Part shown: one piece after another, positions 13,148 to 59,100 of the stretch
Layout of the letters: every line of letters begins with the position of its first letter
Numbering within the stretch: position 1 is the first letter of the stretch
Source of the DNA: Vicugna vicugna
Taxonomy: Eukaryota
Length of the DNA: 64,000 nucleotides
Direction: 5' to 3'
NCBI GenBank assembly: GCA_013265495.1
Contig: MU057711.1
Location: forward strand, 248,001 to 312,000
Notes under the pieces: generated by a model
The model's database searches: none
Told to the model about the DNA's origin: nothing
The model's input: the letters and a program-made list of their open reading frames with translations, nothing else
Made by a program: the position numbers and the translations under genes

Positions 13148-13226
13148 TAATGGAGGTACTGGGGATTGAACCCAGGAACTTGTGCATGGGAAGCATGTGT
13201 TCTACCACTGAGCTGTACCCTCCCCT
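13050..13226 (-). mobile_element. tRNA-Ala-derived camelid SINE (vic-1-like) with internal (ATT/ATC)n microsatellite
   Basis: Minus strand reads GGGGAGGGTACAGCTCAGTGGTAGA...GGTTCAATCCCCAGTACCTCCA (A and B boxes), then an AT-rich tail. (TTA)n at ~13093-13147. Confidence 0.85.
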
Positions 13227-15065: not shown

Positions 15066-15561
15066 GAAGGGTTATGGCAGAAGGAAATTTCAAGAAACCA
15101 GAAAACAGGGAGTATGCCAGAACCGTAGAAAGGCCCTCTCCTTCAAGTATGCGTCGGGCTGTTGACACATTACAGACCCAAGACATTGAGGACTAAATTG
15201 AGAGCTGTTGATTTTCTCAACTTTACCCGTAGCAAATTCACTTCAGGAAAAGGGAGGTGCTTTTGTACCTGGGGGTAAGACTGAGGTTGAAAAAGTGTGG
15301 TATCATCTGGGATGACCCTTCTCACTACTCTCTCACTTGTCAAATATTGCTTAGGATATTACTTAGAGAATAAAACAAATCCCCTGTTATAAATAACGTT
15401 TAGAGGAGTAGAAAGAAACTCATTGTAAGCAATAGTAGATACACTTTATAGTACTGTGAGATTTTGAACAAAACAAAATCAAACAAAAAATCTTTGGGGA
15501 CCTTAGAATGTGAGTTCCTGGAGATCTTTGGCCCAAGAGAACAGACATCTATTGTTTTCAT

Positions 15562-15624
15562 GGGTTTTGTTTTTTGGGTTTTGGTTGGTTTTTTTGTTTT
15601 TTGTTTTTTGTTTTTTTGTTTGGT

Positions 15625-15655
<31 letters not shown>

Positions 15656-15713
15656 NNNNNNNNNNNNNNNNNNNNNNNNNNNNNNNNNNNNNNTTTTTTT
15701 TTTTTTTTTTTTT
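15562..15713. repeat. T-rich low-complexity/poly(T) tract containing a 38-N assembly gap (15656-15693)
   Basis: Seen directly. Confidence 0.95.
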
Positions 15714-22035: not shown

Positions 22036-22171
22036 GGGTTTTTTTCTGGAGGGAGGGGAAGGTAATTAGGTTAGTTTGTTTGTTTGTTTATTTAATGGAG
22101 GTGCTGGGGATTGAACCCAGGACCTTGTGTGTGCTAAGCATGCGCTCTACCAATGAGCTATACCCTCCCCC
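22036..22171 (-). mobile_element. tRNA-Ala-derived camelid SINE (vic-1-like)
   Basis: Minus strand GGGGAGGGTATAGCTCATTGGTAGAGCGCATGCTTAGC...GGTTCAATCCCCAGCACCTCCA. TSD CAAGTATTG at 22027-22035 and 22172-22180. Confidence 0.88.
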
Positions 22172-49852: not shown

Positions 49853-50015
49853 GCTTCCAGAATTTAAGAGTTTTGAGGAACTACAAGTTCCCAAACATTC
49901 AAAAGTCAAACGACAAAGCAGCACCTCCAATGCTCCTGAACGGGAACAGCAGCCAGATGTCGCCGTTACTGAGTGGAGAAACAAGCCCACCCACGAAATT
50001 ATTCAAAAACTGAAT
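49853..50015 (+). CDS. PHKB: PHKB exon, 163 nt: [54 protein letters not shown]; includes the KRQSS phosphorylation motif
   Basis: TTCTAG acceptor, AAT|GTGAGG donor, phase 2 to 0. KRQSS at 49908-49922 corresponds to the known PKA site near Ser700/701 of mammalian PhK beta. Confidence 0.97.
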
Positions 50016-50864
50016 GTGAGGAAGATGCAGTTCCCACATGGTCCTGAGTCAGGCTGGCAGAGCAGGGACTCCCAGGGGCAAACCTTATTTCTTTTTGTCC
50101 TCCCAGAGAAGGTAGCAGCTCATCAGCCTGGGGGTAGCTGGTCTGTCTGTACCCGAGGCAGGAAATGAGGTTCTTCTCATTTGCTAGTATTAGCACGGAT
50201 GTCCTAAAGATGCTTAAGGAGTGGGGATATGAATTGGCTTGTCTTGAGTATGAAAGTGTTACATGGCCCATTAAAGAAGTTGTGTCAGTGACAGTTGCCT
50301 TTGGGATCTCTAGATTTCTCTTCCAGTGCCCTTTCTCTGCTTTTCTTAGCCTGAGTCTTCTCTCCTGTCCCAGTGTTTAGGTCTAATGCTTGCTTTGAGT
50401 CTCTCCAGTCACTGAGGAAAACAATCCCATGACTACAGCCATACGAATATTACATTAGCAGCCTAGTATTTCCCCTTCCCTAAGGTTATTTGCAATTTAA
50501 AAGAAGAGGGGTGGGGGTGGGGGTAGTACTTACCAAAGGAAATGGCATTCCGATAGTAGAGCTATAAACACAGTGACATCTTATTGGGCCATATAAATTT
50601 GAGCATATTGACTAAATAGATACCCTGGCAGATATCATCAGTATATAACTGATCGATATTATCTATAGATCTGCACAAGCATGAATATGATATAGTAGGC
50701 ACGGGACATATGCAATAAGTAGTCTGCATAGGTCCCCTTCTTTCATTCTTCTCTCCACAGTGGGTTGACAGCAGCGTAGTCTCTCCTTTCTGAATAAATA
50801 AAGTCAAAAAGGGAGTGACTAAATGACTTGGCCAAATCTCTCAGAGAGCATTAGAATCAGTATT

Positions 50865-51061
50865 TATTTATCTATCTAACGCCTATGTAGGAATAAAACA
50901 GATTTTTGGCGTCTTTGTCTTTTGAAGAAGACAGTGTTCTGTCGGAGTTCCGCAGGTGCTCTGGTTGGCTCAGTGGGTCCGTGGATGTGAGTCTTGGTGT
51001 ATCTGTGGGAGAGTGTGAGCCACGAGCGTCCTACTACTCCGCCGTCTTGGCCTCTTCTCCC
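50865..51061 (-). mobile_element. TSD-flanked retroposed element consisting of an L1 5'UTR start plus a short tail
   Basis: Perfect 13-bp direct repeat TAGAATCAGTATT at 50852-50864 and 51062-51074. Minus strand begins GGGAGAAGAGGCCAAGACGGCGGAGTAGTAGGACG and ends AGATAGATAAATA. Confidence 0.8.
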
Positions 51062-51374
51062 TAGAATCAGTATTAATGCTTATTAGATGACATATTTTCT
51101 ATTCATTACTTATCTTGTTTCCTGGAAAATATGTTTATTAAATCCTACTTCCCCAGGGAGCCAACTTGTCTACCCTCCATCTCTAAGATACCTAAGATAA
51201 ATAGTTGTATAATGTCATCTTGTGCTTGGTACTGTATCAGTGACATTTTATCTTTTCTCAGTTGCATAGCAGAATATTTCCTCTTTGCATCATGTGGTTT
51301 CATGATTAGTTACTCTCTGTGGTAATTTTTTTATCCATTTCATTCCAGTTACTCATAGTGATTTATATTTTCAG

Positions 51375-56146: not shown

Positions 56147-59100
56147 ACTCCAGAATGGCGTATGGAATCTCTTTCTTTTTTCCCTTGAAAAGAGGTTCAA
56201 AGCCTTCATGTCTATAAGACCACTCATGGCCCACCCACACATGGAACAGACAGGCTCTAGTTGGCCAGTTCCCCTACTAAATATTACAGCATATCTTCCA
56301 GTGTTGAGCCCTGTCCACTGGCCCTGCCCAGTGGCCATGTGGAAGTGCAGGGGGCCACATGTAGGGTATTTGTTCATAGGAAGGCCCCAAGTTTTGTGCC
56401 CCTCGTCACAATGAACCCAGATTCCTGTTGTTATAAACAAAGGATCCATTTCTTTATGCCCCTTGCTCTGAGCACACCCTAGGACTCTGGCTTTTAAATC
56501 TGGCAAGCCTGAGTGTCATAGGCCTCTCATAACCACATCAGCAATGAATGACTGAGGCATTTCTACAAAAGGCACCTTCCCCAAGCAAAATCTAGTCTAA
56601 GGATGCACAGTTACTGAATACCTGCACCTTAAAGCTTTAATTTTCAACTCCTGTGTTAACTTGAATCAGTGAAGATGCTGACAAAGAAAACTGAATGATA
56701 CCCACTGAAACACTCTAGACAGGCTTAGGATATGCAGAGCAAAGAGAGGGAGCAGTGAAGGGCACATTTTCCCTTCTGCTCCACTTAAGATTCTTCTCCC
56801 CATTAGACATGCGCTGGCTCCCCAGATCTTTAACCCTTTGAAGCACCTCTCCTTCCAGCTCCTCCCCTCCCACCAAGGCCAGCTCTTCCCAGCTCCTCCA
56901 CACAGAGCCATCTCCAGTTAGCAGTCCCTTCCTCCTCAGGGTTCTCCCAACTGGCCTGTGACACTTCTTACAATCTGCTCTGGATCCCTGTTCATTTGAA
57001 TGTGTATCTCTCACCCCAGGGTAGGCTGTGAGCCCCTGGAGGTCAGGGCCCATGTCTTGGCCAGCACCTGTCCCAGTGTGCCCAGCATGCCTTGGAGAGG
57101 CACTTGGTGAACGTGGGTTGAGTTGAGCCTCTGCATGTGGGTTTGTGGAGTGGAATGTGGTTGCTCATTTTTTGTTTTGTTTTGTTTTCCATAAGCTCTA
57201 ATTACCTGGCTAAATCATCATCATCTGTTTGGAATGAAAACCTGTTTGCTTTCTATCTGTTCTTTGCGAATACGTGTGTTCTGTTTTGTCTTCCTGACAG
57301 TTAACCTTGGAATATAATAAGCTTTAATAATACGAAATACTTTAACCCTCTTTAATGGAATCAACCCATTGCTCATATCTGAGGGCTCTTAGTTCATTAA
57401 GAGTTAAATTATTCCATCTTGACATCTAGCTCTTGAAATGCTGAAAGAATAAGTTATTTATTTTAGTCTGTAATATTTAATGACAATTTAAAAAACTCCT
57501 GAGAAAAATTTAAATTGCTTTTCACATGTTATTTTCTGTTTTCTCCAAATGACTAAGAGGTAGAATTTTCATCCTCATCCATTAACTGAATAGACCGAGG
57601 CACAGGAAATAAGTTACCCAGTGCCTTTCCTCACCGCAGCACTCATATCTCACAACAGAGTCCTTGGACTGAGCCACCTCTGAAAGAAAGTAAACAGATT
57701 TGGGGAAGCTGTCTTTCCTTGGCTTTTAGGCCTGTGTAGTATATCTGAAAATATAGTTCGTTCTGCTTCACGTGAGCATACAAGAAGGTCGTTTGCACCT
57801 GACAGGTGGGGAAGGGGTAGGTCAGAGCTGGTCATGTCCGTTCTAGGGAAGATCTGGAGTGGCTGACAGCCTGTGATGCTGAGAGTCTGCTCCTCACACC
57901 CTGAAGGCCTGGAGCCTGTCCTGAGGCTGTGGCTGGACCACTGCCTATTAGGCCGGCACGTCTCCCAGGAAAACAGTCACTTACGTGGAGCTGGGTACCT
58001 GCGAGGCTGACAGCTTCACTTTAGGTGTATGAAGTCCATTCATTGACTGCATCTTACCCCTTCACAAGAAAGAAATGAGAATGGAACATTCCAAGTTTGC
58101 TTTCACTCATTTATGAAATGCCACCCTAAGAACTGAAGCAATATTGTTTCTACGAAGCACTTTCAGATCACCGCAAGCTCTCTGGAATGAAATAGGGGTT
58201 TAGTCATCATTGCTTGCAGAGGCAATGATGTACCTTCGGTTTGTTTTTTTCTTGTAACACTGACGTTTTAATACAAGTAATCACACTTGGACTAACTGGT
58301 TGGTACCACTTGTGTTACAATAAACCAGCATTTCTCCCTCCATCACAAAGTTGGGGCAAAAGACCCACCTTCTGCTCTCTCCCCTCATCTCAGAAAACAG
58401 AAGGGCCCTTTGATCTGCTCTTCTTTCTCCTGCCTCTTATAATTGTGCACTGTCCAACGAAGAGAGCGGGAGGGAGGTAATGAGGAGGAAGGAGGGGCCG
58501 CAGACTCTTCTGGGAGGCAAAATGCTGAGGACAGAGGAGAAAGGGAGAGCAGAGTAATCCTCTTGCCCAGCTTCTACAGCACTTTCGGCTTTGAATTTTC
58601 GTTGCCATTTCCCTCTGTGCTTTCTCATTTCCCAGGCTTGTGAGCAGCCTCGTGTGTTCCCCTCCACGGGCGAGATATGCATCAACAAGCATTTTAACAC
58701 TCACTAGGTGCCTGGCACTATGCCGGGAAAAGTGAAGCTACGCTACAGCTCCAAGACCTCGCACTTGCCTTTGAAAAGGTTACAGTGTTGTTAAAGAGCA
58801 GAAAGTTCCGCATGAGGAACTGTAAAAGAAGTGAAGAATATACTCCCAGATGCTAAATTGTGTAGACCGTGCAGTAAAGTAAAACTATTCAGGGTATTCT
58901 GGTTTCTCTGGGGAGTTTCTCATATTAAAGTCATTCAGAATAATTTTATCTTAATGGTTATTTATATTCCTTCCGTGCTTTTATCCACTCTCCTCCACTC
59001 CCCTAACTGGAACCCTCACCTGCCCTTATATTTTAGACCAGACTGAACCATCATGAACTCCAGCGGGAGTCATGCTTTGAAAGCCATTTTAATAAACAGC

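What the first reader, a model, noticed from the sequence alone, without database searches (positions are those of the whole stretch)
50852..51074. 'Head-only' L1 retrocopy: L1 5'UTR start plus short tail between perfect TSDs, a possible undescribed L1-derived SINE or spliced L1 product
Seen: a 197-bp insert bounded by a perfect 13-bp duplication (TAGAATCAGTATT). On the minus strand the target reads CATT|AATAC, similar to the L1 endonuclease TT|AAAA site. The insert starts GGGAGAAGAGGCCAAGACGGCGGAGTAG and keeps many CpGs in a CpG-poor intron. After ...GCCAAAAATCTG it switches to ~30 nt of AT-rich sequence ending in AGATAGATAAATA. Known: mammalian L1 5'UTRs begin with a purine run plus the YY1 motif CAAGATGGC. 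L1 copies normally lose the 5' end and keep the 3' end, and spliced or prematurely polyadenylated L1 RNAs can retrotranspose. Inference: this is the opposite of normal truncation. It is either a one-off copy of a spliced or early-terminated L1 RNA, or a member of a short non-autonomous family built from the L1 promoter. It could also act as a promoter antisense to PHKB, about 850 bp from the exon ending at 50015.
Basis: partly seen in the sequence, partly recalled or inferred. Interest (0 to 1): 0.72.

Follow-up and report, generated by a model that had tools for sequence, protein, structure and literature searches.

The report
Tailless retrocopy of spliced L1 RNA
This 197-base insert is a dead DNA copy of the front of an L1 jumping-gene RNA that had been spliced and was then apparently copied from an internal point instead of from its poly(A) tail; both processes are known from human L1, and nothing shows that it is a new SINE family.

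Summary
The insert (50865-51061, minus strand) and its exact 13-bp duplication are real. It lies in a PHKB intron of a camelid-type genome. Its first 163 nt are an L1 5' end (pig L1D1, by eye: 28/32 and 23/29 matches), a high-copy repeat in three camelid-like DNA runs. At 50899, other copies continue as CTG|GTAGGAG (a donor), and the 34-nt tail is normally preceded by a pyrimidine tract and AAG| (an acceptor), so the junction is an exact GT-AG splice. Two diverged paralogues carry the same junction, and depth suggests a few dozen, about 2-6% of heads (inferred). The tail is internal: other copies run on past it. This copy stops there with no poly(A), at a probable 4-6-nt match to its target site. 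Best reading: a SpIRE-like spliced L1 RNA copied by internal priming (a tailless retrocopy). A fixed-length family is not shown, and the intron's size and the acceptor's place in L1 are untested. The promoter idea has no support. It combines two known processes; modest interest.

The parts
51062..51074 (.). Target-site duplication copy on the element's 5' side (minus strand AATACTGATTCTA)
   Evidence: Exact 13-mer. Contigs crossing this junction into the same flank exist in DNA run X10 (1 difference in 160) and RNA run X17 (5 in 357)
50899..51061 (-). Exon 1: first 163 nt of an L1 5'UTR, CpG-rich, ending at the donor site CTG|
   Evidence: By-eye match to pig L1D1 5' end, 28/32 and 23/29. High depth, with long unlike loose ends at 51048-51058 marking a repeat's 5' end
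50899..50899 (-). Splice junction. The single G is shared by the donor exon end and the acceptor AG; the GT-AG reading is one of two registers
   Evidence: Loose ends at 50899: donor continuation in 20, 18, 27 and 10 contigs (X1, X11, X10, X17); acceptor context in 14, 16 and 8 contigs (X1, X11, X10)
50865..50898 (-). Exon 2 start: 34 nt of internal repeat sequence following the acceptor, cut off without poly(A)
   Evidence: High depth. Loose ends at 50863 (X1, 4 contigs) and 50860 (X11, 1 contig) continue into a shared CTCCTT(T)AAGGACC sequence
50870..50903 (-). Predicted stem-loop across the splice junction (AUCUGUUU paired with AGAUAGAU), directly before the single-stranded A-rich 3' end
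   Evidence: -9.0 kcal/mol, z -2.69, 1 of 200 shuffles as good; the tail without exon 1 folds at -2.1, z 0.05. Prediction only
50852..50864 (.). Target-site duplication copy on the element's 3' side. Its first bases (minus strand AATACT) probably match the L1 RNA at the cut-off point
   Evidence: Exact 13-mer. The 4-6-nt match is inferred from the loose ends and cannot be fixed exactly
50016..51374 (+). Host PHKB intron that holds the insert in antisense orientation
   Evidence: Upstream exon matches PHKB 680-732. GT and AG intron ends and the in-frame next exon read from the sequence

Best explanation
A camelid L1 transcript was spliced from a donor after nt 163 (CTG|GTAGGA) to an internal acceptor (pyrimidine tract, AAG|). 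L1 ORF2p nicked the PHKB intron at a TATT/AA site. The freed DNA end annealed to a short A-rich stretch about 35 nt past the splice junction, just after a predicted stem-loop, instead of to the poly(A) tail. Reverse transcription ran to the RNA's 5' end and left a 197-bp, 5'-complete, tailless copy between 13-bp TSDs. The same splice occurs in other, independently inserted L1 copies, but this 3' end is probably a one-off. The copy has no ATG on its sense strand and no poly(A), so it is most likely dead and neutral. Shown: TSD, high-copy head, donor and acceptor at the junction, other junction carriers, continuation of the tail in other copies.
For:: at 50899 the head runs on as a GT donor (20/18/27/10 contigs in 4 of 4 runs) and the tail is preceded by about 16 pyrimidines plus AAG (14/16/8 contigs in 3 of 3 DNA runs; no such row listed for the RNA run). 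I checked the register of the loose-end table at 50935 against the mismatch table. GT..AG by chance over two registers is about 1 in 128, before counting donor context and pyrimidine tract. Of 32 listed pieces, 2 bridge the junction without a gap: X1 record 1 (84% identical, depth 10.9, 47 unlike letters at its 5' end) and X11 record 17 (90%, depth 15.9). Orthologous-flank contigs are 99% alike, so these two are paralogues. Depth at 50901 is 2.5, 2.7, 5.7 and 6.1% of depth at 50910, near the 2% of human full-length L1s that are SpIREs (PMC5860796). Pig L1B3 has CTGG|GTAGAAC at nt 165/166, the same position (counted by eye). No A-tail and no sense ATG. Tailless, internally primed L1 copies with TSDs are described (PMC5322556).
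Against: No full-length camelid L1 could be fetched, so the acceptor's position and the intron length are untested. The tail was not found in the pig L1 library. The 3'-side loose ends (places 50863 and 50860) do not fix the microhomology, and the copy seems to carry one AATA more than a clean 6-nt priming would give. 2,481 pieces and 215 loose-end rows were not shown. The depth-based counts rest on my reading of how the tool counts near piece ends, and the tool warns that depth is no copy number. The target does not fit the tailless consensus TT/WAAAAWW well (TT/AATACTG). A later deletion between short repeats would leave the same structure.
Confidence: 0.72

Rival explanations
1. A longer spliced L1 (an ordinary SpIRE with poly(A)) inserted first. 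Almost all of it was later deleted from the DNA by joining an internal AATACT-like stretch to the same letters at the start of the 3' TSD.
For: The end product would be identical. PMC5322556 notes this ambiguity for Alu monomers. The other junction carriers appear to run on into L1.
Against: The TSD is perfect and unshortened. The match of a non-canonical nick site to the RNA beyond the A-run is expected under priming but would be a coincidence here (inference). No long allele was seen, but the left flank had zero cover in 4 of 4 runs, so this was not tested.
Confidence: 0.11
2. It is a member of a discrete short non-autonomous family, or the product of a recurrent priming hot spot: many copies of about 200 bp with this junction and this 3' end, possibly already in Repbase or Dfam under a name I could not check.
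For: The junction recurs. Splicing completes a stem-loop right before the cut-off.
Against: Both listed 3'-side loose-end rows continue into shared repeat sequence, and the two bridging contigs end at 50864 and 50861 with no unique flank. There is no poly(A) or tail repeat to propagate from, and no Rfam match at the insert. Only 1 copy in the 64-kb window. Look-ups of earlier findings by sequence gave 0 hits.
Confidence: 0.1
3. The head-tail junction came from reverse-transcriptase template switching or a DNA deletion, not from splicing.
For: Internally deleted LINE derivatives are common in other clades (PMC5786205 passages). Exon 1's last bases can pair with the tail.
Against: Only 1 nt of microhomology; the ends fall exactly on GT and on pyrimidine tract plus AG; the same junction is in paralogues 10-16% diverged.
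Confidence: 0.04
4. The RNA was prematurely polyadenylated just after the junction, and the A-tail has since shrunk.
For: An AATAAA exists at 50868-50863 on the minus strand.
Against: That AATAAA straddles the insert/TSD border. Cleavage would fall 10-30 nt further on and leave those bases plus an A-tail (established knowledge); neither is present, while the TSD is still perfect.
Confidence: 0.03

Closest known systems
Human intra-5'UTR SpIREs (SpIRE97/622, 97/790; Larson et al. 2018, PMC5860796; seen: abstract, Results part 1 of 4, Discussion part 1 of 2)
   Same: L1 5' end joined at GT-AG to a downstream L1 acceptor; recurrent junction in a few percent of copies; TSD within 6-25 bp; endonuclease-type site; intronic and antisense to the host gene
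   Different: Unrelated camelid 5'UTR with the donor after nt 163; no poly(A) tract; the copy ends 34 nt after the junction instead of holding ORF1, ORF2 and the 3'UTR
Tailless retropseudogenes, including 3'-truncated L1 (Noll et al. 2015, PMC5322556; seen: parts 1-4 of 5 of the main text)
   Same: 5'-complete, 3'-truncated, no oligo(A), perfect TSD, ending at an A-rich, predicted single-stranded stretch that seems complementary to the target
   Different: The template was a spliced L1 RNA; the target fits the TT/WAAAAWW consensus only in part; camelids were not among the genomes named in the parts I read
Cetartiodactyl L1 5'UTR, pig L1B and L1D consensus (Chen et al. 2019, PMC6501411; seen: search passages and part 7 of 56 of supplement 1, not the main text)
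   Same: Purine run, CAAGA(T/C)GGCGG, CTCTCCCACA block, and in L1B3 a G|GTAG site followed by an A-rich run at nt 165/166
   Different: The 34-nt tail and its continuation were not found in the pig library by six short motifs
Bipartite ORF-less non-autonomous LINEs (Kojima 2018, PMC5786205; seen: 12 passages)
   Same: Two distant parts of a LINE joined into a short element
   Different: Those keep the LINE's true 3' end, propagate as families, and are reported there for RTE, Ingi, Vingi and R2 only. This copy lacks the 3' end, and propagation is not shown

Membership tests
SpIRE | Derived from an L1 5' end | tested here: met
   By-eye match to pig L1D1 (28/32, 23/29) and high-copy repeat 5' end; no camelid L1 consensus was available
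SpIRE | Missing part begins with GT and ends with AG | tested here: met
   Donor and acceptor loose ends meet at 50899
SpIRE | Donor and acceptor lie in one L1, in order, in the 5'UTR or ORF1 | not testable with these tools
   No contig or locus spanning both was obtained
SpIRE | TSD of about 6-25 bp | tested here: met
   13 bp, exact
SpIRE | L1 endonuclease consensus site or variant | tested here: met
   TATT/AA, one mismatch from TTTT/AA
SpIRE | 3' poly(A) tract (general feature) | tested here: not met
   Insert ends GATAGATAAATA directly against the TSD. So: made like a SpIRE, not filed as a canonical one
Tailless retropseudogene | 5' end complete within 5 nt | tested here: met
   Starts at the same purine run as pig L1D1; other copies' unlike flanks begin at 51048-51058
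Tailless retropseudogene | 3'-truncated by at least 10 nt, no oligo(A) | tested here: met
   Source runs on for at least 30 nt (loose ends at 50860 and 50863); no A-tail
Tailless retropseudogene | TSD of 8-35 nt, at least 70% identical | tested here: met
   13 of 13
Tailless retropseudogene | Target complementary to the last 2-18 nt of the RNA | tested here: inconclusive
   A 4-6-nt match is inferred; the loose-end places (50860, 50863) do not fix it
Tailless retropseudogene | Target consensus TT/WAAAAWW | tested here: inconclusive
   TT/AATACTG fits in part; the consensus is a logo, not a strict rule
SINE or bipartite non-autonomous LINE family | Many copies with the same 5' and 3' ends and different TSDs | tested here: inconclusive
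   Junction recurs, a shared 3' end was not seen; most rows were not shown; no genome held
SINE or bipartite non-autonomous LINE family | Small-RNA (Pol III) head, or the LINE's true 3' end with a tail | tested here: not met
   No Rfam match at the insert; the tail is internal and has no poly(A)
SINE or bipartite non-autonomous LINE family | Existing Dfam or Repbase entry (the camelid name ALPINE is recalled, from no call) | not testable with these tools
   No repeat library here; paper searches for that name found nothing relevant

The most novel reading that the evidence does not exclude
Splicing itself builds the signal for short copies. Joining nt 163 to the acceptor adds four Watson-Crick pairs to a stem-loop that ends right before an A-rich single strand, making a hot spot for internal priming. 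Camelid genomes would then hold a recurrent class of about 200-bp, head-only, tailless L1 retrocopies that scatter CpG-rich promoter heads and antisense splice donors: an ORF-less L1 derivative without the L1 3' end, which the papers I saw do not describe.
Probability: 0.1. Interest if true: 0.6.

Novelty: new variant of a known kind. Interest (0 to 1): 0.3.

Why it matters
As it stands, it is a tidy fossil showing two known side routes of L1 retrotransposition, splicing and tailless internal priming, in one molecule. It adds evidence that SpIRE-like splicing happens in a non-primate 5'UTR at a donor position that pig L1B3 seems to share. It is a usable presence/absence marker in camelids. It would matter more if the same 3' end recurred, because that would tie a splice-made RNA structure to ORF2p priming and give a simple assay of poly(A)-independent priming.

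Tried and rejected
No whole genome is held, so copies could not be counted directly. Collection scans for camelid L1: tail pattern, 0 hits in metagenomes and 0 in viral contigs; head patterns, 0 in viral contigs. An 18-nt tail pattern in prokaryote genomes gave 5 loci, all limited to 19-21-nt matches, so chance. The head pattern in metagenomes gave 2 loci: L006 matches only 21 of 24 nt in GC-rich DNA (chance), and L007 is the first 75 nt of an L1 like pig L1A, cut by the contig end. No second copy, donor continuation or tail continuation in the window. 40 of 287 stop-to-stop frames were scanned against Pfam, 0 hits, so the window gave no L1 ORF as a handle. I considered a second join from the tail's continuation into the L1 3'UTR, prompted by the X1 loose end (agreement 0.68). 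A window search gave 1 match at chance level, and the consensus looks like a blend of copies offset by one base; rejected. No empty allele was seen in 4 runs, but 50560-50856 had no cover in any run, so this says nothing. The RNA contig over 50984-51340 (X17, depth 5.9) has no strand and may be pre-mRNA or DNA; it is not evidence for a promoter. The sigma-70 scan is irrelevant to a mammal. My first guess, a known camelid short family recalled as ALPINE, found no support and could not be tested against a library. Srikanta et al. 2009 on internal priming is not held; I saw only its title in a reference list. Also seen: passages of PMC13174262, PMC8605555 (its supplements could not be read, and may hold a camelid repeat library that bears on novelty), PMC6675863 and PMC3183009. 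None of these passages mentions spliced or head-only camelid L1.

Full report
Observation. The window holds TAGAATCAGTATT exactly twice, at 50852-50864 and 51062-51074, around a 197-bp insert with 9 CpGs (o/e 0.75 against about 0.18 in the flanks). Five of 20,000 random positions reached 13 bp in a comparable search box, and the insert itself was not excluded from that draw. The rebuilt empty site gives a nick of 5'-TATT/AA, one mismatch from the L1 endonuclease consensus. The upstream exon is PHKB residues 680-732, so the element lies antisense in a PHKB intron. That the host is a camelid rests on the finding, on earlier notes for this genome and on two tRNA-headed SINE-like elements in the window that I recall as the camelid Vic-1 type; I did not test it directly.

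The head is an L1 5' end. No genome was held, so I used public runs and laid three DNA runs from three coded organisms and one RNA run on 50560-51340 at 80% likeness. 741, 770, 730 and 272 contigs were laid. In the DNA runs the binned depth over the insert is about 900 to 98,000, against about 8-26 for most listed pieces. Long unlike loose ends at 51048-51058 mark the 5' end of a dispersed repeat. By eye, insert nt 1-32 and 42-70 match the pig L1D1 consensus at 28 of 32 and 23 of 29 columns (supplement 1 of PMC6501411).

The junction is a splice. At 50899 two kinds of loose end meet. Read on the element's strand, the head normally continues CTG|GTAGGAGAAAAGG (20, 18, 27 and 10 contigs in the four runs). 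The tail is normally preceded by about 16 pyrimidines and AAG| (14, 16 and 8 contigs in the three DNA runs; no row listed for the RNA run). One G is shared, so there are two registers, one of them GT-AG. Chance is about 1 in 128 before donor context and pyrimidine tract are counted. I confirmed that loose letters abut the listed place by checking 50935 against the mismatch table. Pig L1B3 has CTGG|GTAGAAC at nt 165/166 (counted by eye), so the site may be old; whether pigs use it was not tested.

The junction recurs. Two of 32 listed pieces bridge it with more than 31 letters on each side and no gap: X1 record 1 (31 differences in 190, with 47 unlike letters at the 5' end) and X11 record 17 (13 in 128). 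Contigs that share this locus's flank differ by 1 in 160 (X10) and 5 in 357 (X17), so the two are paralogues. A contig of depth 2,535 starts at 50899, yet total depth counted at 50901 in that run is 421; I infer that pieces are not counted near their ends, so this figure reflects junction carriers only. On that reading they make up 2.5, 2.7, 5.7 and 6.1% of head depth, roughly 16-55 copies per genome. The tool warns that depth is no copy number, so this is rough. Human SpIREs are about 2% of full-length L1s (PMC5860796).

The 3' end. The 34-nt tail is not an L1 3' end. The two listed loose ends on its far side (X1, 4 contigs; X11, 1 contig) both continue CTCCTT(T)AAGGACC, and the two bridging contigs stop at 50864 and 50861 without a unique flank, as expected if they merge into the common L1 path (inference). 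From memory this stretch lies shortly before ORF1 in camelid L1; no call tests that, and the pig library lacks it. This copy stops at GATAGATAAATA with no A-tail. The TSD begins AATACT on the same strand, which probably matches the RNA at that point over 4-6 nt, with one extra AATA from slippage or from the source copy. This fits the tailless retropseudogenes of PMC5322556: internal priming at A-rich single-stranded stretches, with 90 3'-truncated human L1s counted against 708 full-length. The same paper warns that later recombination between short repeats can mimic this, which is my first rival. Against a fixed-length family: no shared 3' end was listed, though 215 loose-end rows and 2,481 pieces were not shown.

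A structural aside. The whole insert folds better than 200 of 200 shuffles (z -3.28). A stem across the junction (AUCUGUUU with AGAUAGAU, -9.0 kcal/mol, z -2.69) ends just before the cut-off; the tail alone folds at background level. By hand, the unspliced acceptor context keeps only the inner four pairs. This may be chance, as the region was picked after seeing the fold, but it is the basis of the novel case.

Function. The copy has no sense ATG and no tail, so it cannot spread on its own. The YY1-like motif reads ACGG where pig L1 has ATGG; that ATGG is the needed core is my recall, and cannot say whether camelid L1s share the change. Human intra-5'UTR SpIREs have reduced promoter activity. 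No stranded RNA was available. The promoter idea is therefore unsupported, not refuted.

Comparison and verdict. It was made like a SpIRE but lacks the poly(A) and the body, so I do not file it as a canonical one. It meets the three filter criteria for tailless retropseudogenes that I could test. It is not shown to be a SINE or a bipartite LINE family (PMC5786205 passages list only RTE, Ingi, Vingi and R2 as sources). I found no paper on spliced or head-only camelid L1 in eight library searches, but most subscription papers, Dfam, Repbase and one camelid repeat supplement were out of reach. Verdict: a new variant of a known kind, interest 0.3; the hot-spot or family reading has about 10% probability and would deserve 0.6.

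Noticed in passing
window 50984-50992 and 51012-51020, + strand: Two donor-like sites on the PHKB sense strand inside the insert (GAT|GTGAGT and AGT|GTGAGC), with weak acceptors upstream at 50934 and 50955. They could allow exonisation, or resemble the antisense-promoter donors recalled from human L1. No joint was listed in the one RNA run laid.
   Followed up: partly
window 50845-50864 joined to 51075-51080 (empty site): The pre-insertion site is a 7-bp inverted repeat (AGCATTA...TAATGCT) with a 10-nt loop, spanning the two nicks (read). May be chance in AT-rich DNA.
   Followed up: no
window 56357-56475, minus strand: SNORA11 match at 104.6 bits, antisense to PHKB. No poly(A) or clear TSD seen by eye; probably a snoRNA-derived copy.
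   Followed up: partly
window 13151-13222 and 22096-22167, minus strand: Two tRNA-headed SINE-like elements (Rfam tRNA 36-38 bits). The second is flanked by an apparent duplication CAATACTTG, whose start resembles this insert's target; the first has a (TAA)n tail.
   Followed up: partly
window 15552-15710: T-rich run around a 38-N assembly gap at 15656-15693; probably a retroelement tail at a scaffold join.
   Followed up: no
window 50929-50934 and 51049-51061: This copy differs from the depth-weighted majority at a cluster of four sites (69-97% of depth shows the other letter) and in its first dozen bases, so it seems to belong to a minority L1 subfamily.
   Followed up: partly
L007:2560-2730: A metagenome contig ends in a SINE-like stretch followed directly by the 5' end of an L1 like pig L1A: host DNA in a metagenome assembly.
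   Followed up: no
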